NCBI GenBank assembly: GCA_005223125.1
Contig: NJBH01000012.1
Coordinates: 32,001-96,000 of the forward strand
Length of the DNA stretch: 64,000 nucleotides
From: Promethearchaeota archaeon Loki_b32
GTDB lineage: Archaea; Asgardarchaeota; Lokiarchaeia; Sigyniarchaeales; SOKP01
Direction: 5' to 3'
The position numbers and the translations under genes are program-made. The notes below the pieces were generated by a model. That model was not told the origin of the DNA and ran no database searches. It worked only from the letters and a program-made list of their open reading frames with translations. Shown piece after piece: positions 30,867 through 59,895 of this stretch (position 1 is its first letter; the number at the start of each line of letters is the position of its first letter).

Positions 30867-30867
30867 A

Positions 30868-33511: not shown

Positions 33512-33522
33512 TTTTATACCTC

Positions 33523-42427: not shown

Positions 42428-42868
42428 ATGTCGAAAACAGAAATCGTTAAATTTGATGACTATAGTGAGGGAGATTCGGCCTCTTGTAGTAAGACTATTA
42501 CTGAAGCAGATGTAATCTTATTTGCAGGCATCAGTGGAGATTTCAATCCTCTTCATGTGAATGAGCAATTTGCAAAAACCCAAATGTTTGGTACACGGGT
42601 AGTGCATGGTGCTTTCAGTTCAGCATTAATTTCAGCAGTACTTGGTGTTCATTTATTTGGTCCAGGAGCCCTTTATGCTTCACAAAAGGTAGTATTTAAA
42701 AAACCAGTATATATTGGAGATACATTAACTGCAGTTGCAACAATAACAAAGAAATACACTAAAGAAGGTAAAAGTGGAACACTACAATTTCTAGATGTAG
42801 AAACAAAAGTATTGAACCAAAAAGATGAAGTTGTTACAGACGGAGAAGCCCAAGTACTAGTCATGTAA
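42428..42868 (+). CDS. MaoC/PhaJ-like (R)-enoyl-CoA hydratase
   Basis: FAGISGDFNPLHVN hydratase-2 motif, VVHG, FKKPVYIGD. Confidence 0.9.
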   Translation: MSKTEIVKFDDYSEGDSASCSKTITEADVILFAGISGDFNPLHVNEQFAKTQMFGTRVVHGAFSSALISAVLGVHLFGPGALYASQKVVFKKPVYIGDTLTAVATITKKYTKEGKSGTLQFLDVETKVLNQKDEVVTDGEAQVLVM

Positions 42869-46955: not shown

Positions 46956-47060
46956 AATTCCCATAAATATGGGAAAAGGTAAAATTTTTTATGTAATTTA
47001 GATGTTTAAAATAAGATTGAAATTTTATGAAATCGTTCTCAGTCATTAGAACCGAGAAAT
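46956..47060 (+). promoter_or_regulatory. Duplicated promoter module, copy B (upstream of CoA ligase operon)
   Basis: Perfect palindrome TTCCCATA-AA-TATGGGAA (46958-46975), TATA-like core, near-perfect palindrome TTCTCAGT-N7-ACCGAGAA downstream. Confidence 0.7.
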
Positions 47061-47102: not shown

Positions 47103-48683
47103 ATGACTTGGCTTAATCTTGGTGAAATTGTAAATGTTAATGCATATAAATATCCAAACAAACTTGCTCTGAAAGATGCAAGGCGTCAATTAACATTTGA
47201 AGAATTAAATGAAAGAACTAATAAACTTGCCAATGGAATTCTTAAAAATGGGATAAAAAAGGGGGATAAGATAGCTATATTATCTAATAATTCGATAGAG
47301 TTTATGGAAATTTATGTTGCAGCCGCGAAAGGAGGATTTATAATCGTTCCTTTAAATTTTCGCTTACATCCAGATGATATTTCTTTTATAATTAATAATT
47401 CGGATGCAAAATGGTTATTCGTAGAATCCCGATTCCGTGAAGCAACGGAAAAAATATGGTTAAGAGCTAAAGAATTAGGATTTGAAAATGTTGAACGTGT
47501 CTTGATTGACGATGAACCAGCAAAAAGTTGGAAATTTTTTGAAGATATTGTAGAAATGGGAGAAAACTCTTATCCTTTAATCAAAATTAAGCCTGAAGAT
47601 ACGTGGATTATTCTATATACATCAGGTACAACTGGGAAACCTAAAGGTGTAATCCGTTCACATCGTTCTTATATAGCATTTTTCTTAATTAATGGAGTTG
47701 AATTTTCCTTTACACCCCAGGATTATGGGATGATCCTGATGCCGCTCTCTCATGTAAATTCTACATTCTATTCATTTGTCTTTATATATATAGGAGCACC
47801 AGTTTATATCCATATCGAGTATAACTTTGATCCAGAGGAAATTTTAAAGATAATTGATCAAGAGAAAATAACTTTTACTTCTATGATACCTACTCATTAT
47901 AATTTGATATTAAGTCTTCCTGAGGAAGTAAAACAAAAGTATGATCTTAGTTCTGTAACGTCATTATTGACTTCTTCCGCGCCTGCTACTAAGCAAATGA
48001 AATTAGATGTAATGAATCTCTTTATTAAAACAAAACTCTTTGAAGCTTATGGTTCAACAGAAGCAGGGCTTGTAACTCTCCTTAGACCTGAAGATCAAAT
48101 GAATAAGTTAGGTTCAATTGGAAAAGAGTGTATTGGAACAGATTGTATAAAGCTTTTAGATGAAGACGGAAATCCAGTTCCTATAGGAGACATTGGAGAA
48201 CTGTATTCCCGTGGCCCACAAATGTTTGATGAATATTACAAATTACCAGAAAAAACTAAAGATTCTTTTAAAGGAGAATTTTTCAGTGCTGGTGATATGG
48301 GTAAAAAAGACGAAGAAGGGTTTTATACGCTCGTAGATAGAAAAGCAAACATGCTTATCTCTGGTGGAGAACATGTTTATCCATCTGAAGTTGAAAAAGT
48401 TCTTGTTTCACATCCGTCGGTTATTGAATGCGCTGTAATCGGTTTACAAGATTACAAGTGGGGTGAAAAAGTCACAGCAGTTTGTATTTTAAATAAAGAA
48501 ATAGTACCTTCCGATGAAATAACTAAAGAACTCCGTCAATATTGCGATGATAAGTTAGCAAGATTTAAAATCCCAAAAGATGTTTTATACATTAATTCAG
48601 ATGAGATGCCTAGAACTGGTTCTGGAAAAGTTATTCACCGATTATTAAGAGAACGATTTAATAAGCAAATTAATAATGAATAA
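47103..48683 (+). CDS. AMP-dependent acyl-CoA synthetase
   Basis: YTSGTTGKPKG, AYGSTE, SAGDMG, DRKANMLISGG, PRTGSGK. Confidence 0.93.
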   Translation: MTWLNLGEIVNVNAYKYPNKLALKDARRQLTFEELNERTNKLANGILKNGIKKGDKIAILSNNSIEFMEIYVAAAKGGFIIVPLNFRLHPDDISFIINNSDAKWLFVESRFREATEKIWLRAKELGFENVERVLIDDEPAKSWKFFEDIVEMGENSYPLIKIKPEDTWIILYTSGTTGKPKGVIRSHRSYIAFFLINGVEFSFTPQDYGMILMPLSHVNSTFYSFVFIYIGAPVYIHIEYNFDPEEILKIIDQEKITFTSMIPTHYNLILSLPEEVKQKYDLSSVTSLLTSSAPATKQMKLDVMNLFIKTKLFEAYGSTEAGLVTLLRPEDQMNKLGSIGKECIGTDCIKLLDEDGNPVPIGDIGELYSRGPQMFDEYYKLPEKTKDSFKGEFFSAGDMGKKDEEGFYTLVDRKANMLISGGEHVYPSEVEKVLVSHPSVIECAVIGLQDYKWGEKVTAVCILNKEIVPSDEITKELRQYCDDKLARFKIPKDVLYINSDEMPRTGSGKVIHRLLRERFNKQINNE

Positions 48684-48730
48684 GAAATTATCAAAATAAC
48701 AATTAAGAAATAAATTAGGTTGTTAAAAAA

Positions 48731-49939
48731 ATGTCTTTTAAAAAAGCTTACATACCTTATGGACAATACTGGAGTACTCCTTTTTCAAGGTGGCAAATGA
48801 GTTTTCAAAATCTCCATGCTATAAAGTTTGCAGCAGATATAACGACACGCTTTTTAAATGAAAGGGAAATTTCTCCTAATGACTTTGATGAACTCATATT
48901 TGGTATTACAATTCCGCAACTCTATTGTTTCTATGGAGGACCTTGGTTAGCTAGCATGATTGGAGCTGAACATGTTACCGGACCTATGATCAGTCAAGCA
49001 TGTGCTACAGGAACTAATACTATTTCTATCGCGGCTCAGAATATTGAAACAGGAACAAATAAAAATGTACTTGTAGTAACCGCAGATCGATGTTCTAATG
49101 GGCCTCATCTTGTGTATCCGAACCCTCAAGCACCAGGTAGCACGGTGGATGCAGAAAGCTGGGTATGGGATAATTTTGGTCGAGATCCATTTGCTAAGAA
49201 TTCGATGATACAAACTGCTGAAAATGTAGTTAAAGAAGTGGGGATTACTAAAAAGGAACAAGATGAAGTTACTTTGTTACGTTATAATCAATATCAAGAT
49301 TCTATGAAAGATAATAGAGCTTTTCAAAAGAAATATATGATAGATCCTATCGAAGTTAAAGATCGGTCTGGAAGAAAAGTACTTGCAACAGTAGAAGGAG
49401 ATGAGGGGATATATCCAACCACAATGGAAGGATTATTAAAACTTAGACCAGTACTTCCAGAAGGTACAGTTACTTATGGAACTCAAACACATCCAGGAGA
49501 TGCTAATTGCGGTGTAATTGTCGCTACAAAAGAAAAGGCAGATCAATTAAGGAAAAGAGACGATGTTGAGATTAGGATTGTATCTTATGGAGAACATAAA
49601 ACAAAGAAAGGATATATGGCAATGGCGATAGTTCCAGCCGCAAAAAAAGCTTTGGACAATGCCGAGATTACAATAAAAGATGTATCAGTTATTAAAACAC
49701 ATAACCCTTTTGCAGTTAATGATGTATATTTCTGTAGAGAGATGGATATCGAATGGAAAGATATGAACAATTACGGAAGCTCACTTATATATGGTCATCC
49801 TCAAGCACCTACAATGATGAGAATTATTATCGAATTAATAGAAGAATTGGTGGAGAAGGGAGGAGGAATCGGTTTAGCCGACGGGTGTGCTGCTGGGGAT
49901 ACTGGTGCAGCTCTGGTTTTGGAAGTTAAAGTAGAATGA
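48731..49939 (+). CDS. Thiolase family protein (HNPF/CAAGD variant)
   Basis: QACATG active Cys, KTHNPF, YGHPQ, GCAAGDTG. Confidence 0.88.
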   Translation: MSFKKAYIPYGQYWSTPFSRWQMSFQNLHAIKFAADITTRFLNEREISPNDFDELIFGITIPQLYCFYGGPWLASMIGAEHVTGPMISQACATGTNTISIAAQNIETGTNKNVLVVTADRCSNGPHLVYPNPQAPGSTVDAESWVWDNFGRDPFAKNSMIQTAENVVKEVGITKKEQDEVTLLRYNQYQDSMKDNRAFQKKYMIDPIEVKDRSGRKVLATVEGDEGIYPTTMEGLLKLRPVLPEGTVTYGTQTHPGDANCGVIVATKEKADQLRKRDDVEIRIVSYGEHKTKKGYMAMAIVPAAKKALDNAEITIKDVSVIKTHNPFAVNDVYFCREMDIEWKDMNNYGSSLIYGHPQAPTMMRIIIELIEELVEKGGGIGLADGCAAGDTGAALVLEVKVE

Positions 49940-50000
49940 CTTAAAATCTTATTATTTATTTTTTTAAAAATAGAATTTAAACAATAGGAAAGTATGTTTA

Positions 50001-51227
50001 ATGCTTAGAAAGAAAATAGAAGCATCAAAAGAATTAAACAAATTAATGTCTGATTATTATCATGAGTTAGATCATGCCTCCAAAGTAAGTGATAAAAAGG
50101 TTGCGTGGTGTTCTAGTGTTGGTCCTGCGGAAATCTTAAGAAGCTTAGATTTTGAGGTTTATTTCCCAGAAAATCATAGTGCTATGTTAGGATCTTCTAG
50201 AATGGCCACAGAATTAATTCCTTATGCTAATGCGATAGGATATTCCCCTGAGATTTGCTCTTACCTTACTGCTGACATTGGTGCGTATTTAAAACAAGTA
50301 ACTCCATTATCAAAAGCTTTTACTGATATCACAAGTGTCCCAAAACCTGATGTGTTGGTATTTAATACAAATCAATGTAGAGAGGTTCAAGATTGGTTTG
50401 ATTGGTATGCTAATGAATTTAAAGTTCCATTAATGGGTATATCTACACCCAGAACTGTGAGTGAAGTTACAAATGCACATATTATATTTATAGCACAACA
50501 GATGGAAGAGCTTATTGAACAATTAGAACAAATTTCAATTACAAAATTTGATCTTAATAAACTGAAAGAGATTGTATCACTCTCACGTGAATGCTCTGAA
50601 CTTTGGAAAAAAGTGTTAGAAACAGCAGCTACTATACCTTCACCTTTTACCTTCTTTGATGGAACTATTCATATGGGACCTGCTGTAGTTATGAGAGGGA
50701 CTCAACAAGCTGTAGATTATTATAAGATTCTATTAGCAGAATTACAAGACAGAGTAAAAAATCACATTGGAGCAGTAGATAGTGAGCGTTTTAGACTTTA
50801 TTGGGAAGGAATGCCTATTTGGGGAAGACTGAGACACTATTCTGAATTATTTGCAAGCCTTAAAGCATGTGTTGTTGCATCAACTTATTGTAATAGTTGG
50901 ATTTTTTCTGCTTTTGATGAAAAAGATCCTTTTAGAAGTATGGCAAAAGCATATACTGAACTGTTCATCGTACGTTCTGATGAATATAAAGAAGAATATC
51001 TAAAAGAAATGGTAGACTTCTTTAAAATTGATGGTGTTATTTTCCACGATGCAAAGACATGCCCACACAATACTAACTCCCGGTATGGTATGCCCCAAAG
51101 ACTCGAAAAAGAAATGAAAGTGCCGAATTTAGTAATAAATGGAGATTTAAACGATTTAAGATGCCTTTCAGATGATCAATCGAGAACTAGTATCGAAGCC
51201 TTTATTGAACAACTGGAAGAAAGTTAA
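50001..51227 (+). CDS. 2-hydroxyacyl-CoA dehydratase subunit (HgdAB/FldBC/BcrBC family)
   Basis: YFPEN, EICSY, NQC, IDGVIFHDAKTC, GDLND, IEAFIEQL. Confidence 0.85.
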   Translation: MLRKKIEASKELNKLMSDYYHELDHASKVSDKKVAWCSSVGPAEILRSLDFEVYFPENHSAMLGSSRMATELIPYANAIGYSPEICSYLTADIGAYLKQVTPLSKAFTDITSVPKPDVLVFNTNQCREVQDWFDWYANEFKVPLMGISTPRTVSEVTNAHIIFIAQQMEELIEQLEQISITKFDLNKLKEIVSLSRECSELWKKVLETAATIPSPFTFFDGTIHMGPAVVMRGTQQAVDYYKILLAELQDRVKNHIGAVDSERFRLYWEGMPIWGRLRHYSELFASLKACVVASTYCNSWIFSAFDEKDPFRSMAKAYTELFIVRSDEYKEEYLKEMVDFFKIDGVIFHDAKTCPHNTNSRYGMPQRLEKEMKVPNLVINGDLNDLRCLSDDQSRTSIEAFIEQLEES

Positions 51228-51308
51228 AAGAAATTCAGTTTGAGAAAAAAATAAAACATTTTTAAATAATCATTAATAAGAAAATTTGAAAGAAAGAGCA
51301 AGAAAAAA

Positions 51309-51779
51309 ATGGTAGATAAGATTAAAGCTATTGAAATAAAGAATTATATTGGGAAAGAATTTAGCACAAAATGGTATCAAGTTACCCAAGAAGCTATCAA
51401 TAAATTTGCAGATCTTACACAAGACCACCAATTTATTCATATCAACCCTGAAAGAGCAAAAAGATCACTTTATGGAGAAACAGTCGCTCATGGTTTTTTT
51501 GTTTTATCTATGCTAGGTTTCTTTACTTTACAAGATGGAGAGAAAGACTCCATGCAATTTTATGTAACAGATGCCAAATCAATCGTTAATTATGGATTTG
51601 ATAAAATAAGGTTTATCTCTGCTGTTCCAGTTGGTTCTTATATTCGAGATGTTACTCACATTTCAAAAGTCGAATTAGTCAAAAAAGGAATGAAATTTAC
51701 TTCACACCATATAATTGAAATTAAAGGTCAAGACAAGCCTGCTGTTGTCGCAGATTGGATTAACCTGCTCGTCCTATAA
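51309..51779 (+). CDS. MaoC-family (NodN-like) dehydratase
   Basis: FADLTQDHQFIHINPERA, VAHGF, NYGFDKIRF. Confidence 0.9.
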   Translation: MVDKIKAIEIKNYIGKEFSTKWYQVTQEAINKFADLTQDHQFIHINPERAKRSLYGETVAHGFFVLSMLGFFTLQDGEKDSMQFYVTDAKSIVNYGFDKIRFISAVPVGSYIRDVTHISKVELVKKGMKFTSHHIIEIKGQDKPAVVADWINLLVL

Positions 51780-51945
51780 CTCATTATTGCAGACTTGATA
51801 ATCCTTCTTTTGTTAAAGGGTTATCTCCAATAATTTCTTACATTCTCGGCAATACATCGAAATTTATATTTTATGGAGATCATATTTATAATTTCATTTA
51901 TTTAGTTTATTTTATACTATGATGATTTATTTTTGGTGATGATAC

Positions 51946-52773
51946 TTGATTATTGATGGTCATGTTCATATCTGTGGTCCTCCATTAAATCAGGAATATA
52001 TAAAAACTCCTTTAGCAAACGGATCATTAATTACTTTACCATTTAAAAGAGCTGATTGCTCTGTAGATCGCCTTCTACAGGCCATGGATACTCACAATAT
52101 TGATATGGCTCTTGTTAATGCATTCCCTGGAGCGGTAACTAACGAGCAACTGTCACAAATAATAAAGGAACACAAGGAAAGGTTAAAAGGTTTCGCTTGG
52201 ATAGATAATCCCTTAAATGAAAGTAATTCTGCGAGGGAGTTAGAGAAAGCATTTACTAAATTAGATCTTAGAGGTCTTAAACTTAACCCTGGGACACAGC
52301 AATTTAGTCCCGCTGATCCTAAGGTTTATCCACTCATTAAAAAAGCTACTGAGCTAAAGATCCCAATCTTTATTCACATGTATCCATGGCCTCTCGACGC
52401 CTTTGAATATACCAAGCCTGAGCATATATATACATTGAAAAAGCATGTACCTGATGCAATAATCTTAATTGGTCATACGGCATATCAACATTTTATGGAT
52501 CTATTACCTCTTATGTCTTATCCTGGAATATATGTTGAGACTTCATTTGGGCTTGAGATGATAGCAGATTTATATGGTGTCAAATTTGCAGAAAGATTTA
52601 TCCGTAGAATTGGCATTGATAAGGTTGTCTATGGTTCAGACTGGATGGGCACTCAAGATGGGAAAGAAAGAATTGTAGATAATAACTTTAGTATATTTGA
52701 TAAAATGAATCTTACAAAAGAAGAGAAAGCTAAAATCCTAGGAGAAAATATTAGAAACGTTATGGAATTATAA
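51946..52773 (+). CDS. Amidohydrolase_2 family protein
   Basis: IIDGHVH, GLKLNP, IFIH, IGH, YGSDW, ILGEN. Confidence 0.85.
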   Translation: MIIDGHVHICGPPLNQEYIKTPLANGSLITLPFKRADCSVDRLLQAMDTHNIDMALVNAFPGAVTNEQLSQIIKEHKERLKGFAWIDNPLNESNSARELEKAFTKLDLRGLKLNPGTQQFSPADPKVYPLIKKATELKIPIFIHMYPWPLDAFEYTKPEHIYTLKKHVPDAIILIGHTAYQHFMDLLPLMSYPGIYVETSFGLEMIADLYGVKFAERFIRRIGIDKVVYGSDWMGTQDGKERIVDNNFSIFDKMNLTKEEKAKILGENIRNVMEL

Positions 52774-52801
52774 CATAACTTAACTAATAGTTTTAAATTA
52801 A

Positions 52802-53158
52802 TCAGTTCGAAATTATTTCGTGCAATATATTTTCAATTTTTAATTTTTCCAATGAGTCTGGACTTAGAATATAAGCTTTTTCTTTATTTTTTTCTTCAAC
52901 TACTATCATTCCAGATGATTTTATTCTATTTTTAATATGATTTTTCTTATCTTTTATAGCTACATTCAATATCGAGGTCAACTGATTGTATTGTTTTTCA
53001 CTAATTTCCTTTTTAGTATAATTTCCCCCATTGTAAACTCCACTTGAGCTAAATAAGGGTTTCACGGGTATAAATTCAATGAATCTATCTCTTATAATAT
53101 ATTGATTACCATTTCCATCGAGATAATTATAAATTTTCTGAGAAGAACTTAGAACCAT
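52802..53158 (-). CDS. Hypothetical protein co-transcribed with SAMP/MoaD
   Basis: ATG at 53158, 4 nt after the SAMP stop; YLDGNGNQY...SSSGVYNGG. Confidence 0.6.
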   Translation of the reverse strand: MVLSSSQKIYNYLDGNGNQYIIRDRFIEFIPVKPLFSSSGVYNGGNYTKKEISEKQYNQLTSILNVAIKDKKNHIKNRIKSSGMIVVEEKNKEKAYILSPDSLEKLKIENILHEIISN

Positions 53159-53162
53159 CTTA

Positions 53163-53444
53163 TTATCCTCCAACAAGAGGAGGAGAGATAACAATTTCGT
53201 CCCCATCTTTTAATTTCGTGTCTAATTCTTCTAAGAACATATAATTTCTTCCATTCACTAGGATTACAACATGAGTCTCTAAATTTCCTTGTGATTTAAC
53301 AAAGTTTTTCCTAATTTTCTTTCCATAGGTACTCATGAATTGATCGATGACCTCTCCTAATGTTTCAACATCAGTATAATTGATATGTGTTAATCCAACA
53401 TCAGTTGAAAATATAGTCATTAATTTTAGAACCACATTTGCCAT
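53163..53444 (-). CDS. MoaD/ThiS/SAMP ubiquitin-like sulfur carrier
   Basis: VILVNGRN...LKDGDEIVISPPLVGG C-terminal diglycine. Confidence 0.9.
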   Translation of the reverse strand: MANVVLKLMTIFSTDVGLTHINYTDVETLGEVIDQFMSTYGKKIRKNFVKSQGNLETHVVILVNGRNYMFLEELDTKLKDGDEIVISPPLVGG

Positions 53445-53614
53445 TAAATCTTTAATATTCTAATGGTGTTAAAAATTTTATCCAATAGAATTATTAAGTT
53501 TAATCATAAGGTTAAAAATTATTTTTAATCTTTCCTAATCTAGAAGAAAAGTATTTTTTACTTTACTAGATAAGTTAAATACACTATTACAAAATACTCA
53601 TCGTAAGTGAAATT

Positions 53615-55165
53615 ATGAATCCCAAAGATGAAATCATCGAACAATTAAAACAGATGATCAATGAAAATCAAGTTCTAACAGATTTAGTAGACCTGTATGT
53701 ATATTCTTTTGAGAAAATATTTCTAAACCAACTTTACCCAAAACCTGATGTTGTGGTTAGAACTTCTTCTATAAAAGAAGAGACAGACGTTTTAAAATTA
53801 GGTGAGAGGGAGAATGTTGTAGTAATTAAAAGAGGCCATGAGATTTTATCTCGTGATATCAATTCCTCTGATATGATTATCTTATTAGATAATGTGGAGA
53901 TTCCATCTCTTGAAAGTTGTACTGAGGAAATAGGAGGAAAAAAAGGCCTTATTAAAGATTTTCATGAATTAATAAGAAGTGGACATGGAACCTATAGGAA
54001 TTTTGCGTTAGCTGTTCAAAACTTACTATTTGGAAAAACACTAAGCAAATGTCAAAATTGTATCACTTGTACAGGGTATTGTACAGTATCTCCTTCTTTT
54101 AATGGGATAGAAACTTGGTCATCAAAAGGAAGAATGCTTATAGCTAAGGGAATAATGAAAGGAGAACTAGCGTTCTCAGAAAAAATTATTGATACGTTAT
54201 ATACTTGTACAAAATGTGGACTTTGTTATGCTCAATGTTTCCAGGATTTGGAGTTTCATGAAGCAATACTTTATTTAAGACATATTATAGCTGAAAAGAA
54301 TTTAACTCCACAGATTTTTCGTACAACAGCTAATAACATTTTTGAACATGGAGATCCTGCCGCAATACCAGTTAATCGGCGTTTATCACGATTAAAAAAT
54401 ATTACTAATTTGAATTTACCACAAAAAGCGAATATTCTTTGTTGGTTAGGGTGTACAGTAGCAACACGAACTCCAAAAACCGCCGAGGCTTTTATAAATA
54501 TATTAAACCGGGGTAATAATGAATTTACGATGTTAGGGAAAAATGAAGGGTGTTGTGGCTATGTATTAATAACATCTGGATTATGGGAAGAAGCCAAAAA
54601 AGTTGCAATAGAAACAATTGAAAGGATTGAAAAGACCGAAGCGGAAATTTTAGTGACTCCTTGTTCTGGCTGCTACTACACTTTTACACGGCTTTATCCT
54701 GAAATTCTTGATGTCAATTTACCATGTAAAATCCTCCATAGTTCTCAATTTCTTGAAAAAAAGATAAAAAATGAAAAAATTAAACTTAAACCTATGGAAT
54801 TAAATGTTTCTTATCATGATCCTTGCTCCCTCGGAAGACATAGTAAGGTTTATGACCCACCACGTAATGTATTGAAGGCAATACCTAATCTTAATCTTAT
54901 TGAGATGCCATTGAATAGAGAGTGTGCACGATGTTGTGGAGGTGGAGGTGGACTTTGGACATTTAATAATCAAGTAAGTTTAGAAACGACTCAAACAAGG
55001 TTAAAAGAAGACTTAATCCCTACAAATGTTAATATTTTAACAACAGCTTGCCCACAATGCCAGCTAAATTTCCGTTTTGCAGCTCGCACGAAAAATCTTG
55101 CGTCTAATTCATTTAAGATCTATGACATAACAGAAATATTTGAAAAAGCTATGCAATTTGAATAA
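53615..55165 (+). CDS. GlcF/HdrD-like Fe-S oxidoreductase with vestigial GlcD-type N-terminus
   Basis: N-terminal DLYVYS...PDVVV..RG; CITCTGYC, CTKCGLCYAQC, CCG, TPCSGC, HDPC, CCGGGGG, TACPQC. Confidence 0.8.
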   Translation: MNPKDEIIEQLKQMINENQVLTDLVDLYVYSFEKIFLNQLYPKPDVVVRTSSIKEETDVLKLGERENVVVIKRGHEILSRDINSSDMIILLDNVEIPSLESCTEEIGGKKGLIKDFHELIRSGHGTYRNFALAVQNLLFGKTLSKCQNCITCTGYCTVSPSFNGIETWSSKGRMLIAKGIMKGELAFSEKIIDTLYTCTKCGLCYAQCFQDLEFHEAILYLRHIIAEKNLTPQIFRTTANNIFEHGDPAAIPVNRRLSRLKNITNLNLPQKANILCWLGCTVATRTPKTAEAFINILNRGNNEFTMLGKNEGCCGYVLITSGLWEEAKKVAIETIERIEKTEAEILVTPCSGCYYTFTRLYPEILDVNLPCKILHSSQFLEKKIKNEKIKLKPMELNVSYHDPCSLGRHSKVYDPPRNVLKAIPNLNLIEMPLNRECARCCGGGGGLWTFNNQVSLETTQTRLKEDLIPTNVNILTTACPQCQLNFRFAARTKNLASNSFKIYDITEIFEKAMQFE

Positions 55166-55172
55166 ACTCCTA

Positions 55173-55328
55173 TTATTTTGCCAAACCCCTAACTTTTGGT
55201 TGGCCTGGCCATGGCCATGAGATTCTATATTTAATATTACAGTGAGGACAAGTAGCCTCTTTGACATTTGGTTGAACAGGAAAACGTTCAAGACAATTCA
55301 AACACCTACATTTAGTTTCTTCACTCAT
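55173..55328 (-). CDS. Small zinc-finger protein (51 aa), absent from ORF track
   Basis: Translates MSEETKCRCLNCLERFPVQPNVKEATCPHCNIKYRISWPWPGQPKVRGLAK; GAGGAG RBS upstream; two CxxC knuckles. Confidence 0.75.
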   Translation of the reverse strand: MSEETKCRCLNCLERFPVQPNVKEATCPHCNIKYRISWPWPGQPKVRGLAK

Positions 55329-55664
55329 ACATAGGTCTCCTCTTACTTTAAAATACCAAATAATATTAATGGTTTAGAAGGATTCAATAATAGGTATGAA
55401 ATAATTTTAATTGTTAATTTATTGTTAAAAGCGGTCTATTATATTATTCTAAAGTAATTTACTACTTATTAGTTTACGTTGAAATATTTAAATCTAATGG
55501 ATAATTTAAATAAAAAGTAAAACTTTTTAATTTTTCAACTGAATACTAGTATTAAAATTGCTTCTGAGTTCAATTCTGTTGCTTAAGTGGGCACATATTC
55601 CCATCGCACTAAAACGCCTAGTGATTCGTAATGAAATAAAATCAAGAGTTAGAGGTGGAATATT

Positions 55665-57554
55665 ATAGTTTGGAATAAAAAAATAGCTTATATTGATTTA
55701 AGTACTGGAGAAATAACAAAAAAACAGATTCCAAAATCAATTCGACAACAATTTTTAGGTGGTAGAGGTATAAATATGTATCTTCTATACAATCACCTCG
55801 TACCTGGAATTGATCCTTTAAGCCTTGAAAACGTGTTGCTTGTAGGTGCGGGATTACTTACAGGAATTCCCGCACTTGGAAGTGGAAGATGTGATATAGC
55901 AGCAAAATCACCTATCACTGGTGCAATTGGCGACTCAAATATCGGAGGTTTTTTTGCACCGGAAATGAGAATGGCTGGATTTGATCATCTTGTAATAACA
56001 GGAAAAGCAGAGAAACCTAGTTATCTTTGGATACATGATGGTGAAATAGAAATATTAGATGCTAGCCATCTTTGGGGAAAAGACACGTTTGAAACACAAA
56101 CCTTAATCCGTTCGGATCATGGAGATGAAGAAATAAAATCTTTAGTTATCGGCCAAGCAGGTGAAAATCTTGTTCGTTTTGCTAATGTTAGAACTGGCAT
56201 GAAAAATTCTGCAGGACGTACCGGTATGGGATGTGTTATGGGTTCAAAGAATCTAAAGGCTATAGCTGCTCGTGGAACATTGGATGTTGAATTTACCCAT
56301 CCAGATCAATTGCTAACTTACTGTAAAGAAATGATCGATATGGTTATGAAAAATCGGTATTCAAGAGCAGCATCAAAGTGGGGTACTTTGATTATATATA
56401 GCACTACAAATACCACAGGATTAATTCGAACAAGAAACTTTCAATTAAACCAGCTAGAGCAGGGATGGGATATTGAACCTGAAGAAATGGATAAGTATAC
56501 AATTGGTATGTCGGGTTGTTATGGATGCCCTGTCAGCTGTCGACATCGGTATACATTGAAAGAGGGATCTTTTGCCCCTATTTTTGCTGAAGGTCCGGAA
56601 TACACTTCGCTTGGTGCGTTTGGTACTATGGTAGATTGTAAGAAAATGGAAACAATTTTAGTAGCAAATCATCTCGTTAATAAGTATGGTATAGATACGT
56701 TAGAAACTGGAGGACTTATAGCTTGGGCAATGGAACTCTATGAAAAGGGTATAATTACCGAAAAAATGACAGATGGACTACGACTCGAATGGGGTAATGA
56801 AGAAGTTGTGTTTGAACTTATTAGAAAAATTTCTCAAAGGGAAGGATTTGGGAGCGTACTTGCTGATGGATTTAAAAATGCAATAGCAAAGATAGGAAAT
56901 GAATCTGAATATTATGCTATTAAAGTAAAGGGAATGAGCAATTTACATTCAGATGAACGTCCAACTCCAAGTTTAGCTTTAGGTATCGCCACATCGACAA
57001 GAGGAGCTGATCATTTAAGAAGTCGACCAGCTATCGATCTTTATGGCTTACCAGAAGATTTCTTAGAAGAAATATATGGTGGTTCTATGTCATCAGATTA
57101 TAGATCTTATAAAGGGAAAAGTCGCATGGTTTGGTGGCAAGAGCTTTTATACGCAGTTACAGATTCATTGGGGACATGTAAATTTCAGACGGTTTTTTTG
57201 GCAGTTCATGCTCCAAAATGGGAGGAATATTCAAAACTAATCTATTTAGTTTCTGGAATGCAATATTCGATCCCCCAACTTATGGATATAGGAGAGAGAA
57301 TTTACACTATTGAAAGAATGTTTAATATTAGAGAGGGATTTTCAAGAAAGGATGATGCTCTACCCGAACGCTACTTTGAGGAAGCTACACCTATAGGACT
57401 TCCAAGAGTAAAAGGTCTAAAAATTGATAGAGAAAAATTTGAAAAAATGCTTGATGAGTATTATACCCTTCATGGGTGGGATAATAATGGGGTTCCTACA
57501 AATAAAATCCTTCAAAAACTTGGAATTGAACGAGAACCATCTCAAATTATTTAA
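55665..57554 (+). CDS. aor: Tungsten aldehyde:ferredoxin oxidoreductase family protein
   Basis: IAYIDLSTG...FLGGRG N-terminus upstream of the tracked ATG; KSPITG, GRTGMGCVMGSKNLKA, CYGCPVSC, GPEY, RGADH, DSLGTC; start inferred at ATA 55665 after GAGGTG. Confidence 0.9.
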   Translation: MVWNKKIAYIDLSTGEITKKQIPKSIRQQFLGGRGINMYLLYNHLVPGIDPLSLENVLLVGAGLLTGIPALGSGRCDIAAKSPITGAIGDSNIGGFFAPEMRMAGFDHLVITGKAEKPSYLWIHDGEIEILDASHLWGKDTFETQTLIRSDHGDEEIKSLVIGQAGENLVRFANVRTGMKNSAGRTGMGCVMGSKNLKAIAARGTLDVEFTHPDQLLTYCKEMIDMVMKNRYSRAASKWGTLIIYSTTNTTGLIRTRNFQLNQLEQGWDIEPEEMDKYTIGMSGCYGCPVSCRHRYTLKEGSFAPIFAEGPEYTSLGAFGTMVDCKKMETILVANHLVNKYGIDTLETGGLIAWAMELYEKGIITEKMTDGLRLEWGNEEVVFELIRKISQREGFGSVLADGFKNAIAKIGNESEYYAIKVKGMSNLHSDERPTPSLALGIATSTRGADHLRSRPAIDLYGLPEDFLEEIYGGSMSSDYRSYKGKSRMVWWQELLYAVTDSLGTCKFQTVFLAVHAPKWEEYSKLIYLVSGMQYSIPQLMDIGERIYTIERMFNIREGFSRKDDALPERYFEEATPIGLPRVKGLKIDREKFEKMLDEYYTLHGWDNNGVPTNKILQKLGIEREPSQII

Positions 57555-57569
57555 AACGAGGTAAATAAA

Positions 57570-58058
57570 ATGCAAAAAATATTATTTGTCGATCCAGAAA
57601 AATGTACTGGATGTAGACTCTGTGAGATTGCATGTTCTCTTCATCATGAAAAGGTTAGTAATCCCTCTCGAGCAAGAATTCAAATTGTAAAATGGGAAAA
57701 TGCTGGCTTATTTATACCCATGATTTGTCAACAATGCGAAACGCCTATTTGCGAAATTGTTTGTCCAATGGGTGCAATAAGTAGAGATGAAAAGACCGGT
57801 GCTATGCTTATCAATAAAGAATTATGTGTTGGATGTAAACTATGTGTAATGTTCTGTCCACTTGGGGGAGTAGGAATTGATAAGAATAGAAAAATTTTAA
57901 AGTGCGACCTTTGTGATGGCGATCCTTTATGTGTGAAATATTGTATTCCTGGTGCTCTTCAATTTATGGATGCAAATGTTATTAATATAAAAAAAAGAAG
58001 AATAGCAGCAGAAAAATTATCAGAATTGATGAAAAAATTGTTAGAAGTATCTTTATAA
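57570..58058 (+). CDS. 4x[4Fe-4S] ferredoxin-like subunit (AorA-type)
   Basis: CTGCRLCEIACS, CQQCETPICEIVCP, CVGCKLCVMFCP, KCDLCDGDPLCVKYC. Confidence 0.9.
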   Translation: MQKILFVDPEKCTGCRLCEIACSLHHEKVSNPSRARIQIVKWENAGLFIPMICQQCETPICEIVCPMGAISRDEKTGAMLINKELCVGCKLCVMFCPLGGVGIDKNRKILKCDLCDGDPLCVKYCIPGALQFMDANVINIKKRRIAAEKLSELMKKLLEVSL

Positions 58059-58090
58059 AAAAATATATGATTTATTTAAGAGGGTTAAAC

Positions 58091-59038
58091 ATGGTAGAGA
58101 AAATAAATTTTGGTATTATTGGTGTCGGACCAACTGGAGGAATTATGGCTGCTTATCTTGCTAAAGAAGGTTATAACGTAGTTTTGGTCGACATAAATAG
58201 AAATCATATGGATGCTATAAAAAAGAAGGGACTTACGATAACGAATCTTAAAAAATTTAAGACAAAATTTCCAAAAAAGAATATTTGTTATTCTATAGAT
58301 GAGCTTCAAAATAAGAAAGTTGATACTTTATTTATTGCTGTAAAAGCATCCCATCTTAAGGAAATTTTACCACAAATAAAAAAAGTTGTAGAACCTGGAA
58401 CTACTTTAATTAGCTTACAAAATGGTTTTGATACAGAGGAACTTATTGCAGAATATGTGGGAGAAGAGAACTCTTTACGTGTAGTTGTTAACTATGCCGG
58501 AAATGTATTGGAGGATGGAATCATAAGAATGTCATTTTTTAATCCTCCGAATTATTTGGGTGTTTTAACGACTAACGCTGAAGAAAAAGCCAAAAATTTA
58601 GCAGAAATTATCAATAAAACCGGTTTAGAAACTATTTTTACTCCAGATATTAAAAAATATGAATGGACTAAATGCATACTTAACTCAATAAGCCCCGTTT
58701 GTGTAACGACTCGAACAACAATGAAACAAACCTTGAGTATGGAAGGAACAAGAAAAATTTGTAGAGAAATACTACGTGAAGGAATAGAAGTTGCACGAGT
58801 ACGTGGTATTAACCTCGAACCAGATTTTTTAGAGAAGAGTATGGACTATCTGGATAAGGCAGGACACCATAGAGTTTCAATGGAAGCCGATATAGAGGCA
58901 GGTATTCCTTCAGAAATTGGATTTCTCAATGGTAAAATAGTAGAATATGGAAAAATTGAAGGGATTGAAACACCTTATAATAAAATATTTGTCTCTTTAA
59001 TTAAAGGATGCGAATTACCTCCTATAAATCGTGATTAA
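58091..59038 (+). CDS. panE: Ketopantoate reductase family (PanE/ApbA)
   Basis: GVGPTGG, AVKA, LQNG, EWTKCILN, SMEADI, EIGFLNG, TPYN. Confidence 0.85.
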   Translation: MVEKINFGIIGVGPTGGIMAAYLAKEGYNVVLVDINRNHMDAIKKKGLTITNLKKFKTKFPKKNICYSIDELQNKKVDTLFIAVKASHLKEILPQIKKVVEPGTTLISLQNGFDTEELIAEYVGEENSLRVVVNYAGNVLEDGIIRMSFFNPPNYLGVLTTNAEEKAKNLAEIINKTGLETIFTPDIKKYEWTKCILNSISPVCVTTRTTMKQTLSMEGTRKICREILREGIEVARVRGINLEPDFLEKSMDYLDKAGHHRVSMEADIEAGIPSEIGFLNGKIVEYGKIEGIETPYNKIFVSLIKGCELPPINRD

Positions 59039-59082
59039 ATCATAATTTACTTACAGTGAAATTATAGGGATGAAAGTTAAGA

Positions 59083-59895
59083 ATGAGTAAGAATTTGTCG
59101 ACTTCAATTTCTTTTTTTGTTGGACTCGATGTGGGAACTTCATATGTAAAATCAGTACTTATTGATAATAATAAAGAGATTTTAAGCTCATTTGTTAAAC
59201 GTACTGGTACTTCTATAGAGAATTCAAGTAAGACTGCTTTTGAAGAAGTTCTTTCAGGTGCATCATTATCTAGATCTTCTATAAAACATATTACAGCGAC
59301 AGGTTATGGAAAAAGTAAGGTTTCATTTGCTGATAGTAATAAAACTGAAATTAGTTGTCATGCAAAAGGAGCTTATCATTATTTTCCCAAGAAGATTACA
59401 GTTATTGATATTGGAGGGCAAGATACAAAGGTTATTAAGCTTGATGAGAAAGGAAAAATAGTTAGATTCAAAATGAATAGAAAGTGCGCTGCAGGAACAG
59501 GAGCTTTTATTGAAGAGATTGCTTATCGGCTTGATCTCCCTCTAAAAGAATTAAATAACTTAGCAGCAAAATCTACTTTAAATGCACCTCTTGCAAGTTT
59601 TTGCACTGTTTTTGCTAAAACCGAAATTCTTACTCGTATAAAAGATGGTGAAAAAGTAGAGGATATGATAAAAAGTGCCTTTGATTCAGTTATTAGGAGA
59701 ATAATTGAGATGGCTGTCCTAGAAGGTTCAATAGTTCTTACGGGTGGGCTTATAGCTCACAATCGTATCATTGGGGTAATTCTAAAAAAGGAAATAAATG
59801 CGGATATTTTGATTCCACCTCACCCACAATTAATAGGAGCAATAGGAGCAGCGCATTTTGCATTAGAAAGTTATGTTTTAGAAATAAATCAATAA
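59083..59895 (+). CDS. 2-hydroxyacyl-CoA dehydratase activator (HgdC/FldI-type ATPase)
   Basis: GLDVGTS, TGYG, EISCHAKG, DIGGQDTK, MNRKCAAGTG, SFCTVFA. Confidence 0.9.
   Translation: MSKNLSTSISFFVGLDVGTSYVKSVLIDNNKEILSSFVKRTGTSIENSSKTAFEEVLSGASLSRSSIKHITATGYGKSKVSFADSNKTEISCHAKGAYHYFPKKITVIDIGGQDTKVIKLDEKGKIVRFKMNRKCAAGTGAFIEEIAYRLDLPLKELNNLAAKSTLNAPLASFCTVFAKTEILTRIKDGEKVEDMIKSAFDSVIRRIIEMAVLEGSIVLTGGLIAHNRIIGVILKKEINADILIPPHPQLIGAIGAAHFALESYVLEINQ

What the first reader, a model, noticed from the sequence alone, without database searches (positions are those of the whole stretch)
47103..59895. Hypothesised new upper pathway: aryl-lactyl-CoA dehydration and beta-oxidation funnelling into benzoyl-CoA
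Seen: one operon has CoA ligase, thiolase, a single 2-hydroxyacyl-CoA dehydratase subunit, MaoC and amidohydrolase. A second has AOR, ferredoxin, PanE and the dehydratase activator. Established: PanE-family enzymes can be D-2-hydroxyacid dehydrogenases; FldBC/FldI dehydrate phenyllactyl-CoA to cinnamoyl-CoA; cinnamoyl-CoA beta-oxidation yields benzoyl-CoA; W-AOR oxidises phenylacetaldehyde/benzaldehyde. Inference: together with the aminopeptidases and the bzd operon this could form a peptide to Phe to phenyllactyl-CoA to cinnamoyl-CoA to benzoyl-CoA route, bypassing phenylacetyl-CoA alpha-oxidation. Caveats: only one dehydratase subunit, and no 3-hydroxyacyl-CoA dehydrogenase or aminotransferase is visible.
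Basis: inference. Interest (0 to 1): 0.75.

Follow-up and report, generated by a model that had tools for sequence, protein, structure and literature searches.

The report
Lone-subunit aryl-lactyl-CoA dehydratase module
Next to its benzoyl-CoA ring-reduction genes, this Asgard archaeon carries a widespread but biochemically untested gene set (keto-acid reductase, CoA ligase, single-subunit radical dehydratase with ATP-driven activator, hydratases, thiolase) that most likely turns phenylalanine- and tyrosine-derived keto acids into benzoyl-CoA.

Summary
All ten gene calls in the finding are correct. Comparative genomics changes the anatomy.

- **Conserved unit:** a lone HadB-like iron-sulfur subunit (50001-51227), an HgdC/HadI-type activase (59083-59895) and a PanE-family reductase (58067-59038). 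It usually comes with this specific AMP-ligase and an atypical thiolase.
- **Not core:** the amidohydrolase and the M29 peptidases are local insertions. The AOR/ferredoxin/CCG/MoaD block is an optional cassette.
- **Fusions:** the reductase is fused to the dehydratase subunit in a Myxococcota MAG and to the activase in Bacteroidota.
- **Distribution:** at least 592 relatives exist in species genomes of both domains. A second dehydratase-family gene lies nearby in only 3 of 80 loci.
- **Neighbours:** often indolepyruvate:ferredoxin oxidoreductase, Had/Dch/Oah, benzoyl-CoA reductases and 4-hydroxybenzoyl-CoA-reductase-like enzymes.
- **Co-occurrence:** 32 of 34 sampled Asgard genomes with this BzdO also carry the module.
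- **Prior annotation:** a cluster of the same order and sizes in Desulfococcus multivorans was annotated "predicted R-phenyllactate dehydratase", and the gene clusters it lies in are reported as phenylpyruvate/phenylacetate-induced (PMC5109826).

This scan has already reported the same module in Bacteroidota and sulfate reducers.

The parts
50001..51227 (+). Lone alpha-type (HadB/FldB-like) [4Fe-4S] radical dehydratase subunit, 408 aa
   Evidence: PF06050 E=4e-65. HadB 3o3m E=1.5e-51. Cys86, Cys126 and Cys354 align with BzdO Cys95/128/380, and Glu57 with BzdO Glu65. BzdO His131 is Val and Trp46 is Gly. It forms a distinct 90-row clade (support 99) apart from BzdO/BcrB.
59083..59895 (+). ATP-dependent activase (HgdC/HadI type)
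   Evidence: TIGR00241 231 bits. HadI 4eht 187 bits. The KCAAGTG and CTVFA cluster-cysteine motifs are present. An activase lies beside the HGD-D ortholog in 71 of 80 loci.
58067..59038 (+). PanE/ApbA-family NAD(P)H 2-oxoacid reductase (likely start 58091)
   Evidence: ApbA plus ApbA_C. The KPR catalytic set (N119, K202, N206, S271, D275, E283) is invariant or nearly so, fusion proteins included. It is fused to HGD-D (P0123, P0142, P0130) or to the activase. A second ApbA gene lies elsewhere in the genome.
47103..48683 (+). AMP-forming acyl-CoA ligase (FadD-like), candidate aryl-lactate/aryl-propenoate ligase
   Evidence: PF00501. PRK06187 431 bits; benzoate-CoA-ligase structure 2v7b only 150 bits. 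Orthologs at 40% identity or more lie next to the HGD-D ortholog in 34 of 80 loci.
48731..49939 (+). Atypical thiolase
   Evidence: Thiolase_N and Thiolase_C. TIGR01930 190 bits, below the 240 cut-off. The Cys-His-Cys triad is present and NEAF reads HNPF. Orthologs at 40% identity or more occur in 33 of 80 loci.
51309..51779 (+). MaoC-type (R)-enoyl-CoA hydratase, variant motif
   Evidence: PF01575. Asp and His are kept in a QDHQFIH motif. Conserved after HGD-D in Asgard loci.
42428..42868 (+). Second MaoC hydratase, canonical GDFNPLH motif. It heads the operon in other Asgard genomes.
   Evidence: PF01575. Motif seen. It lies directly upstream of the ligase in L001 and L004.
34772..35818 (-). 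Had-like Zn-dependent beta-hydroxyacyl-CoA dehydrogenase, a candidate for the missing 3-hydroxyacyl-CoA dehydrogenase
   Evidence: TIGR03201 237 bits, below the 338 cut-off. An 88% ortholog stays beside the module in G204, where BzdN/O and Oah orthologs were not found.
29979..34662 (-). bzdN-bzdO-(159 aa ORF)-bzdP-bzdQ class I benzoyl-CoA reductase, the proposed sink for the product
   Evidence: BzdO 688, BzdN 493 and BzdQ 430 bits, all above their cut-offs. Linked to the module in families f1 and f24.
55662..57554 (+). Tungsten-type aldehyde:ferredoxin oxidoreductase (optional cassette). The N-terminus is encoded upstream of the first ATG.
   Evidence: AFOR_N and AFOR_C. 1aor 368 bits, with the match starting at chain residue 39. 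The conserved N-terminal peptide follows a TAG, with only ATT/ATA available as starts. Cassette absent in G204.
57570..58058 (+). Polyferredoxin of the AOR cassette
   Evidence: Fer4 families. Co-varies with AOR.
53615..55165 (+). Soluble HdrD/TfrB-like CCG iron-sulfur protein of the AOR cassette
   Evidence: CCG x2 plus Fer4_8; TfrB 163 bits. Present or absent together with AOR in the Asgard loci compared.
53163..53444 (-). ThiS/MoaD-like protein (probable cofactor maturation for AOR)
   Evidence: PF02597. Conserved in L001, L003, L004 and L010.
55173..55328 (-). 51-aa Cys-rich microprotein divergent from aor
   Evidence: 82-88% identical copies beside aor in Asgard loci, and 47% beside an AOR in a Desulfobacteraceae MAG.
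46958..47026 (+). Promoter-region cassette with the palindrome TTCCCATAAATATGGGAA, duplicated at 44656-44724 before the radical-SAM gene
   Evidence: Repeat family D6, 84% identical. Pattern search.
51946..52773 (+). Amidohydro_2 gene: a local insertion, not part of the conserved system
   Evidence: PF04909. No NCBIfam hit. Not found in 5 same-genus genomes or in any related locus compared.

Best explanation
The window holds the Asgard version of a widespread catabolic module for 2-oxo and 2-hydroxy acids. Its most probable substrates are phenylpyruvate and 4-hydroxyphenylpyruvate.

Proposed sequence:
1. The PanE-family enzyme reduces the arylpyruvate to (R)-aryl-lactate with NAD(P)H.
2. The FadD-like ligase makes aryl-lactyl-CoA.
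3. The lone HadB-like [4Fe-4S] protein dehydrates it to cinnamoyl-CoA (or 4-coumaroyl-CoA) through a ketyl radical. It is primed by one ATP-driven electron from the HgdC-type activase.
4. The two MaoC hydratases add water.
5. A 3-hydroxyacyl-CoA dehydrogenase oxidises the product. The candidate is the neighbouring Had-like Zn-dehydrogenase or an enzyme encoded elsewhere.
6. The atypical thiolase releases acetyl-CoA and benzoyl-CoA. Benzoyl-CoA enters the adjacent Bzd pathway, or is excreted as benzoate in genomes without Bzd.

The AOR/polyferredoxin/CCG/MoaD block is an optional side cassette. It may oxidise aryl-aldehydes, and possibly supplies low-potential electrons.

Shown here: gene content, catalytic-residue conservation, gene fusions, synteny and co-occurrence.
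Inferred: substrate identity, direction of flux, the oligomeric state of the lone subunit and which dehydrogenase is used.
For: **One enzyme system**
- PanE::HGD-D fusions exist (P0123 at 53% identity, P0142, P0130).
- PanE::activase fusions exist in Bacteroidota.
- The three genes are adjacent in all Asgard loci examined, including the AOR-less G204 and the distant family f24.

**Dehydratase-type, not ring-reductase-type**
- The three cluster cysteines and the catalytic Glu are conserved.
- BzdO His131 and Trp46 are not conserved.
- HadB is the best solved match, and the family forms its own clade.

**PanE and activase look functional**
- PanE keeps the ketopantoate-reductase catalytic Lys/Glu/Asn/Ser set.
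- A second, higher-scoring ApbA gene could serve CoA biosynthesis.
- The activase keeps both cluster cysteine motifs.

**Link to aromatic metabolism**
- 32 of 34 Asgard genomes with BzdO have the module, 8-24 kb away where both lie on one contig.
- In Bacteroidota it sits inside a bcrCBAD-had-oah-dch operon.
- In 80 cross-phylum loci the neighbours include IorA in 18 (L088 IorA 768 bits, above its cut-off), Had in 17 and a 3HCDH-ECH fusion in 11. A 4-hydroxybenzoyl-CoA-reductase-like Mo enzyme occurs in at least 6 (L030 951 bits against a 994 cut-off).
- An IOR lies beside the Asgard module in L004.

**Published support**
- D. multivorans carries iorA3B3, 'putative phenylpyruvate reductase' (319 aa), 'R-phenyllactate dehydratase activator' (269 aa) and 'subunit alpha' (416 aa), then ligases. 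A 680-aa 3HCDH-ECH fusion and a 396-aa thiolase lie in the adjacent cluster.
- Proteins of these two clusters form specifically on phenylpyruvate and phenylacetate, and phenyllactate supports growth (PMC5109826).

**Self-contained**
- G204 (100% complete) has the module plus Had, but BzdN/O and Oah orthologs were not found.
Against: - No enzyme of this family has been assayed.
- Characterised 2-hydroxyacyl-CoA dehydratases are alpha/beta heterodimers and use a CoA-transferase. Here there is one subunit and a ligase.
- Only about half of the long loci (23 of 44) carry an aromatic-pathway marker nearby.
- Genomes such as G049 have the module without Bzd or a Had ortholog.
- No 3-hydroxyacyl-CoA dehydrogenase is assigned with confidence in this window.
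- An acyl-CoA dehydrogenase with a ferredoxin-fused EtfAB lies 25 kb upstream and could divert the enoyl-CoA to a reductive fate.
- Orthology to the D. multivorans genes rests on gene order and protein sizes, not on a sequence comparison.
- The D. multivorans authors read their genes as converting phenyllactate to phenylpyruvate.
Confidence: 0.55

Rival explanations
1. Reductive (Stickland-like) branch. Aryl-lactyl-CoA is dehydrated to cinnamoyl-CoA and then reduced to 3-phenylpropionyl-CoA by an acyl-CoA dehydrogenase/EtfAB as an electron sink, as in Clostridium sporogenes. It is not beta-oxidised to benzoyl-CoA.
For: An acyl-CoA dehydrogenase (closest model: acryloyl-CoA reductase AcrC) with EtfB and a ferredoxin-fused EtfA lies at 21899-25156. 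Etf genes also flank the module in L001.
Against: A thiolase and hydratases are conserved inside the operon, and a reductive branch does not need them. The module is linked to benzoyl-CoA reductases of two types and to Had/Dch/Oah. The Acd/Etf set is not adjacent in most loci.
Confidence: 0.14
2. The same chemistry acts on a non-aromatic 2-oxo acid (2-oxoglutarate, 2-oxoisocaproate, 2-oxobutyrate or pyruvate). The link to bzd then reflects shared lower-pathway intermediates such as glutaconyl- or crotonyl-CoA.
For: HadB, which acts on an aliphatic substrate, is the closest solved relative. The ligase is FadD-like. About half of the long loci show no aromatic marker. The module also occurs without Bzd.
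Against: No glutaconyl-CoA decarboxylase carboxyltransferase (PF01039) was found in this 95.5%-complete genome. Neighbours are IOR, 4-hydroxybenzoyl-CoA-reductase-like enzymes and BCRs. The syntenic clusters of D. multivorans are reported as induced by phenylpyruvate and phenylacetate.
Confidence: 0.13
3. The lone subunit is an accessory ATP-dependent reductase or dehydroxylase of the benzoyl-CoA pathway. It would act on a substituted benzoyl-CoA or a ring intermediate, perhaps borrowing BzdN, and PanE would reduce a ring ketone.
For: It is embedded in BCR operons. MbdO is the second-best solved match. 4-HBCR-like enzymes are frequent neighbours.
Against: The BzdO catalytic His131 and Trp46 are missing. 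It has its own single, homodimer-type activase. It is present where BzdN/O were not found. PanE keeps an alpha-keto-acid-reductase active site. Another HGD-D family gene is nearby in only 3 of 80 loci.
Confidence: 0.07

Closest known systems
Phenyllactate dehydratase system FldI + FldABC with FldL (Clostridium sporogenes), and (R)-2-hydroxyisocaproyl-CoA dehydratase HadI + HadBC with LdhA and HadA (Clostridioides difficile; PDB 3o3m, 4eht)
   Same: The catalytic subunit has the PF06050 fold, three cysteine ligands and the conserved Glu. There is a dedicated HgdC-type ATP-dependent activase. A 2-oxoacid reductase is encoded alongside. The proposed chemistry is alpha-dehydration of an (R)-2-hydroxyacyl-CoA via a ketyl radical.
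   Different: Only the alpha-type subunit is present, with no beta subunit gene. The reductase is PanE-family, not a D-isomer-specific 2-hydroxyacid dehydrogenase. An AMP-ligase (and, in bacteria, an ADP-forming synthetase) replaces the CoA-transferase. The operon couples to a thiolase, hydratases and benzoyl-CoA reductase, which is an oxidative fate rather than reduction. It scores 229 bits against the HadB equivalog cut-off of 750.
Desulfococcus multivorans DSM 2059 cluster Dmul_24830-24900 (PMC5109826)
   Same: The gene order and protein sizes match the Desulfobacterales loci found here: IorA, IorB, reductase 319 aa, activator 269 aa, alpha subunit 416 aa, then ligases. A 680-aa 3HCDH-ECH fusion and a 396-aa thiolase lie nearby. 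The genes are annotated as phenylpyruvate reductase and R-phenyllactate dehydratase.
   Different: It is bacterial, and it has IOR and a TRAP transporter in place of the AOR cassette and MaoC hydratases. Orthology was not tested by sequence here. That paper assigns no route through cinnamoyl-CoA.
Class I benzoyl-CoA reductase catalytic subunit BzdO/MbdO (PDB 8s02, 9g87)
   Same: Same superfamily, the same three cluster cysteines and Glu, ATP-driven electron injection, and the same genomic island.
   Different: The His131 and Trp46 acid/base residues are absent. There is no N-type double-cubane partner of its own. It has a single activase gene rather than a P/Q pair. It forms a separate clade.
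Beta-oxidative cinnamoyl-CoA to benzoyl-CoA route (plants; Streptomyces enterocin pathway; 3-phenylpropanoid degradation in Aromatoleum, Rhodopseudomonas and D. multivorans)
   Same: A hydratase, dehydrogenase and thiolase yield benzoyl-CoA plus acetyl-CoA (own knowledge and PMC5109826).
   Different: Entry here would be by radical dehydration of aryl-lactyl-CoA. In the known routes entry is by ammonia-lyase or by acyl-CoA dehydrogenation.

Membership tests
2-hydroxyacyl-CoA dehydratase (Hgd/Had/Fld/Lcd) | Catalytic component of the PF06050 (HGD-D) fold | tested here: met
   PF06050 E=4e-65. HadB alpha E=1.5e-51 over residues 4-407.
2-hydroxyacyl-CoA dehydratase (Hgd/Had/Fld/Lcd) | Heterodimer of homologous alpha and beta subunits encoded side by side | tested here: not met
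   No second HGD-D gene lies in the operon. The nearest are bzdN/O about 15 kb away. Only 3 of 80 related loci hold another HGD-D family gene. The oligomeric state could not be tested.
2-hydroxyacyl-CoA dehydratase (Hgd/Had/Fld/Lcd) | [4Fe-4S] cluster held by three cysteines with one open iron site, plus a catalytic Glu | tested here: met
   Cys86, Cys126 and Cys354 are conserved in at least 90% of 32 family members, and Glu57 is invariant. They align with BzdO Cys95/128/380 and Glu65. This is sequence-level evidence only.
2-hydroxyacyl-CoA dehydratase (Hgd/Had/Fld/Lcd) | Dedicated ATP-dependent activator with a bridging [4Fe-4S] cluster | tested here: met
   TIGR00241 231 bits. HadI 187 bits, with both cluster-cysteine motifs present. 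Adjacent in 71 of 80 loci.
2-hydroxyacyl-CoA dehydratase (Hgd/Had/Fld/Lcd) | Substrate supplied by a CoA-transferase | tested here: not met
   No CoA-transferase is in the cluster. An AMP-ligase is present here, and an ADP-forming synthetase in 48 of 80 related loci.
2-hydroxyacyl-CoA dehydratase (Hgd/Had/Fld/Lcd) | Dehydration of an (R)-2-hydroxyacyl-CoA to a 2-enoyl-CoA | not testable with these tools
   Needs an anaerobic enzyme assay.
HadB equivalog (NF052455) | Score above the curated cut-off of 750 bits | tested here: not met
   229.5 bits.
Class I benzoyl-CoA reductase, O/B subunit | Catalytic His131/Trp46 and an N-type double-cubane partner | tested here: not met
   Val129 and Gly40 occupy those positions. 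TIGR03191 scores 73 bits against a 449 cut-off. It forms a separate clade.
Double-cubane cluster protein (DCCP) | NF040772 above its 350-bit cut-off | tested here: not met
   62.8 bits.
Ketopantoate reductase family (PanE/ApbA) | ApbA and ApbA_C domains with the catalytic Lys/Glu/Asn/Ser | tested here: met
   TIGR00745 scores 189.5 bits against a 141 cut-off.
Ketopantoate reductase family (PanE/ApbA) | Physiological substrate is ketopantoate (CoA biosynthesis) | tested here: inconclusive
   Its fusion to dehydratase parts and its catabolic context argue against this. A second ApbA paralog scores higher (216 bits). No assay was possible.
Thiolase | Cys-His-Cys catalytic residues | tested here: met
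   Cys91, His355 and Cys385 are present, and the NEAF motif is replaced by HNPF. It falls below the TIGR01930 cut-off.

The most novel reading that the evidence does not exclude
The lone subunit works without any beta partner, which would make it the first single-subunit 2-hydroxyacyl-CoA dehydratase, possibly held in a complex with the PanE-like reductase and the activase. Together with IOR running in reverse (reductive carboxylation of phenylacetyl-CoA to phenylpyruvate), the module would form a molybdenum- and oxygen-independent route from phenylacetate, phenylalanine and tyrosine to benzoyl-CoA in strict anaerobes. That would fill the gap left by the absent padBCD/padEFGHI genes in sulfate reducers. 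Asgard and Thermoplasmata archaea would have acquired the module from bacteria.
Probability: 0.15. Interest if true: 0.85.

Novelty: new variant of a known kind. Interest (0 to 1): 0.62.

Why it matters
How strict anaerobes without the Pad enzymes convert phenylalanine, tyrosine, phenylpyruvate or phenylacetate to benzoyl-CoA is unresolved. PMC5109826 says so for D. multivorans.

A conserved module found in hundreds of species across both domains would give a concrete, testable answer. It would also add a structurally new, partnerless form of the ketyl-radical dehydratases.

For Asgard archaea it links their peptide and amino-acid lifestyle to their puzzling benzoyl-CoA reductase genes. Those genes have so far been read as hydrocarbon or aromatic-pollutant degradation (PMC8163825). 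It also indicates gene flow of whole catabolic modules between bacteria and archaea in sediments.

Tried and rejected
- **Complex prediction:** Complex prediction of HGD-D with the PanE-like protein gave no verdict (score 0.00). It is neither for nor against binding.
- **Expression:** The small word shares in RNA runs are not evidence of expression.
- **Shared operator:** the TGGG-N8-CCCA and CCCA-N-TGGG palindromes occur upstream of aor (55588) and the ligase (46960), but the counts are not above chance. The exact 18-bp palindrome is found only before the radical-SAM gene and the ligase. No regulon claim is made.
- **Hydroxyglutarate pathway:** considered, then down-weighted because no PF01039 gene was found.
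- **BzdN as an obligatory partner:** rejected, because G204, G049 and G102 lack BzdN above its cut-off. G243 and G150 were taken out of the 'no Bzd' argument because they hold BzdN fragments at contig ends.
- **Had as the universal missing dehydrogenase:** rejected, because G049 has no Had ortholog.
- **Ligase and thiolase as universal parts:** rejected for Bacteroidota, where these genes are not orthologous (22% identity).

Full report
**Observation**

The window is low-GC DNA (about 32%) from an Asgard archaeon. Close homologs carry the labels Promethearchaeota and relatives, and the near-identical DNA occurs in marine-sediment and cold-seep metagenomes. Every gene call in the finding is correct.
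- The first run is an AMP-ligase, thiolase, one PF06050 HGD-D protein, MaoC and Amidohydro_2.
- The second run is AOR, polyferredoxin, PanE/ApbA and an activase.
- A Bzd-type benzoyl-CoA reductase operon (oah-dch-had-bzdN-bzdO-x-bzdP-bzdQ) lies at 29979-37711 on the minus strand. BzdN, BzdO and BzdQ score above their equivalog cut-offs.
- The genome holds eight full HGD-D family genes. The one at 50001-51227 is the only HadB/alpha-type besides BzdO, and the others score as N/beta or double-cubane-like.

**What is conserved in Asgard genomes**

In other Asgard contigs (L001, L003, L004, L010, L019-L022, L054) the layout is a supercluster.
- The oah-dch-had-bzdNO... operon lies divergent from MaoC(146 aa), ligase, thiolase, HGD-D and MaoC(156 aa).
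- Next come MoaD/ThiS (minus strand), a CCG/HdrD-like protein and a 51-aa Cys-rich gene (minus strand).
- The run ends with AOR, polyferredoxin, PanE and the activase.

The three M29 peptidases, the DRG GTPase and the amidohydrolase of this window are absent from those loci. The amidohydrolase was not found in five same-genus genomes.

In G204 (100% complete) the whole MoaD-CCG-51aa-AOR-ferredoxin block is missing, and PanE and the activase directly follow MaoC156. So PanE and the activase belong with the dehydratase operon, and the AOR block is an inserted optional cassette.

In the distant Asgard family f24 (G259) the HGD-D ortholog (59% identity) is followed by the activase and then PanE. 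An SDR, a crotonase and an ADP-forming acyl-CoA synthetase subunit lie nearby, and bzdVQPON lies 10 kb away.

**Co-occurrence with bzd**

I searched 301 sampled Asgard genomes.
- 47 have an HGD-D ortholog at 54% identity or more.
- 34 have a BzdO at 83% identity or more.
- 32 have both. Where the two lie on one contig they are 8-24 kb apart, in two families.

Kin are not independent, so I give no statistic. Within one genus of 28 genomes the pattern is 9 with both, 1 with HGD-D only, 0 with BzdO only and 18 with neither.

Fifteen genomes have the module without a BzdO match. Two of these are assembly gaps, since BzdN fragments sit at contig ends. G204, G049 and G102 lack BzdN above its cut-off. 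G204 keeps an 88% Had ortholog beside the module but has no Oah ortholog. G049 has neither.

**The core is a three-protein system**

A search of 1.8 billion representative proteins found PanE::HGD-D fusion proteins. These are P0123 (728 aa, Myxococcota MAG, 53% identity), P0142 (768 aa) and a partial, P0130. The P0123 gene is followed by an activase and a molybdenum hydroxylase whose large subunit scores best as 4-hydroxybenzoyl-CoA reductase alpha (733 bits, below its cut-off).

A search for longer PanE relatives found about 30 PanE::activase fusions of 600-645 aa in Bacteroidota. In a Crocinitomicaceae genome the fusion sits in bcrC-bcrB-bcrA-bcrD-x-ligase-loneHGD-D-PanE::activase-thiolase-had-oah-dch. 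The lone HGD-D there is 53% identical to the window's. The ligase and thiolase are not orthologous to the window's (22% identity).

**Distribution**

A scan of one genome per prokaryotic species found at least 592 relatives. The best 80 are 62-88% identical to the window's protein. They come from Asgard, Thermoplasmata, Chloroflexota, Desulfobacterota (including Geobacter MAGs), Ignavibacteriota, Bacteroidota, Aminicenantes, Zixibacteria, Planctomycetota, Spirochaetota and Proteobacteria.

Neighbours within these loci, many of which are truncated:

| Neighbour | Loci of 80 |
|---|---|
| Activase | 71 |
| ADP-forming acyl-CoA synthetase, about 693 aa | 48 |
| PanE | 42 |
| Orthologous ligase | 34 |
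| Orthologous atypical thiolase | 33 |
| Crotonase | 30 |
| IorA | 18 |
| Had | 17 |
| 3-hydroxyacyl-CoA-dehydrogenase/crotonase fusion | 11 |
| AOR | 8 |
| 4-hydroxybenzoyl-CoA-reductase-like large subunit | at least 6 |
| BCR ATPase subunits | 6 |
| Any other HGD-D family gene | 3 |

A typical Desulfobacterales operon reads ECH, 3HCDH-ECH, Had, IorA, IorB, PanE, activase, HGD-D, ADP-forming synthetase, ligase, thiolase. In L088, IorA (768 bits) and Had (473 bits) exceed their equivalog cut-offs. The Ignavibacterium Mo enzyme scores 951 bits against a 994 cut-off. Of 44 loci of 15 kb or more, 23 carry at least one aromatic-pathway marker.

In a tree, the lone-subunit family is a well-supported clade (support 99) apart from BzdO/BcrB and from the N/C-type subunits. 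The window's clade groups with Thermoplasmata inside a bacterial radiation, while the f24 Asgard copy branches outside it. That pattern is consistent with inter-domain transfer. I did not formally test the direction.

**Sequence features**
- **HGD-D.** Cys86, Cys126 and Cys354 align with the [4Fe-4S] ligands Cys95/128/380 of BzdO, and Glu57 aligns with Glu65. The BCR-specific His131 and Trp46 are Val and Gly, as in HadB (citing PMC11971306). This fits a dehydratase-type rather than a ring-reducing active site.
- **Activase.** It matches HadI, MbdQ and HgdC and keeps both cluster-cysteine motifs.
- **PanE-like protein.** It keeps the ketopantoate-reductase Lys/Glu/Asn/Ser set in all members, fusions included. 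An acidic residue after the second beta strand suggests NAD(H) use (own inference). A second ApbA gene elsewhere scores higher on TIGR00745, 216 against 189 bits, so the cluster copy need not serve CoA synthesis.
- **Hydratases and thiolase.** MaoC146 has the canonical hydratase motif and MaoC156 a variant that retains Asp and His. The thiolase keeps Cys-His-Cys with an unusual HNPF motif.
- **Ligase.** It is FadD-like, not benzoate-CoA-ligase-like. The same is true of the non-orthologous Bacteroidota ligase.

**Literature**
- The Asgard bcr cluster has been described (PMC8163825), but the neighbouring module has not.
- For Desulfococcus multivorans, supplementary Table S1 of PMC5109826 lists the genes in order. 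[quoted passage not shown] Then come 'subunit alpha' (416 aa) and two ligases.
- A 680-aa 3HCDH-ECH fusion and a 396-aa thiolase lie nearby in that genome.
- The paper reports that proteins of these two adjacent clusters form specifically on phenylpyruvate and phenylacetate, and that phenyllactate supports growth.
- It also notes that padEFGHI is absent, so the path to benzoyl-CoA is unclear.
- The gene order and sizes match the Desulfobacterales loci found here. I could not test orthology by sequence.
- A 2026 paper (PMC13416013) draws phenylpyruvate to phenyllactyl-CoA to cinnamoyl-CoA to benzoyl-CoA as a hypothesis, with an 'unassigned dehydratase'.
- I found no biochemical characterisation.

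**Mechanism proposed**

Arylpyruvate is reduced by PanE, activated by the ligase, and dehydrated by the lone [4Fe-4S] subunit after ATP-driven one-electron priming. The enoyl-CoA is hydrated by the MaoC proteins and oxidised by a 3-hydroxyacyl-CoA dehydrogenase. The candidates are a Had-like enzyme here and a 3HCDH-ECH fusion in bacteria. The thiolase then cleaves the product to benzoyl-CoA (or 4-hydroxybenzoyl-CoA) plus acetyl-CoA. Bzd dearomatises benzoyl-CoA where it is present.

- **Shown:** gene content, residue conservation, fusions, synteny and co-occurrence.
- **Inferred:** substrate, direction of flux, oligomeric state and the role of the AOR cassette.

The AOR cassette might oxidise aryl-aldehydes or supply low-potential electrons. 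An IorA-like gene exists elsewhere in this genome (544 bits, below its cut-off), and an IOR lies beside the module in L004.

**Rivals**
- A reductive Stickland-like fate via the nearby Acd/EtfAB.
- An aliphatic substrate.
- An accessory reductase role in the ring pathway.

The conserved thiolase and hydratases, the missing PF01039 gene, the aromatic-type neighbours and the non-BCR active site argue against them. None is excluded.

**Verdict**

The central idea is the best available reading, and it now rests on cross-domain comparative evidence. The amidohydrolase and peptidases are not part of the system, the AOR block is optional, and the idea is foreshadowed in sulfate-reducer proteogenomics.

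This scan has already reported the same module in Bacteroidota and sulfate reducers. I re-tested the fusion and operon claims independently. It is a new variant of the 2-hydroxyacyl-CoA dehydratase systems: one subunit, a PanE-type reductase, a ligase instead of a transferase, and an oxidative fate.

Noticed in passing
window 55650-55775: The conserved AOR N-terminus (W..IAYIDLSTGE...) is encoded upstream of the first ATG and directly after an in-frame TAG. Only ATT (55662) and ATA (55665) are available as starts, behind a GAGGTGG motif, so a near-cognate start codon is likely.
   Followed up: partly
window 44656-44724 and 46958-47026: An 84%-identical 69-nt cassette with an 18-bp palindrome precedes both the radical-SAM gene and the ligase operon. 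The radical-SAM gene and the SagB-like 425-aa gene between them are conserved at this position in several Asgard loci (L010, L019-L021; the 425-aa gene also in G204). The radical-SAM protein hits MoaA and the tungsten-cofactor radical-SAM maturase only weakly.
   Followed up: partly
window 55173-55328 (-): A 51-aa Cys-rich microprotein gene divergent from aor is conserved at 78-88% in Asgard loci. A 47% copy lies beside an AOR in a Desulfobacteraceae MAG (L092). It may be an AOR maturation or regulatory factor.
   Followed up: partly
window 53615-55165: The soluble CCG/HdrD-like protein begins with about 140 residues that look, by eye, like the start of a GlcD-type FAD-oxidase domain (untested). 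It is present or absent together with AOR, which suggests an AOR-polyferredoxin-CCG electron-transfer complex of unknown acceptor.
   Followed up: no
window 38228-42199 (-): Three tandem M29 aminopeptidase genes (about 1.35-kb repeat units, 65-82% DNA identity in parts) are inserted between oah and MaoC146. They are absent from the syntenic loci of other genomes.
   Followed up: partly
window 21899-27966: An acyl-CoA dehydrogenase (closest to acryloyl-CoA reductase, cyclohexanecarboxyl-CoA dehydrogenase and glutaryl-CoA dehydrogenase models), EtfB and a ferredoxin-fused EtfA lie next to an 847-aa BzdV-like NuoG/GltD fusion. This may be a bifurcating-type module of the aromatic island.
   Followed up: no
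window 31704-32183 (-): A 159-aa ORF with no family hit sits between bzdO and bzdP. It is conserved at 62% identity in L001. The classical bzd operon has no counterpart (own knowledge).
   Followed up: no
loci L023-L097 (e.g. L030:11312-13390, L024:2792-4876): In bacteria and Thermoplasmata a fused ADP-forming acyl-CoA synthetase of about 693 aa directly follows the lone HGD-D gene (48 of 80 loci). Whether it activates the hydroxy acid or harvests ATP from the product is open.
   Followed up: partly
G000 contigs C18:198994-204567 and C58:84343-86707: Two further HGD-D gene sets of double-cubane/N-type character lie elsewhere in the genome. One has its own activase, and one lies next to a GlcD-like FAD oxidase. 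Their function is unknown.
   Followed up: no
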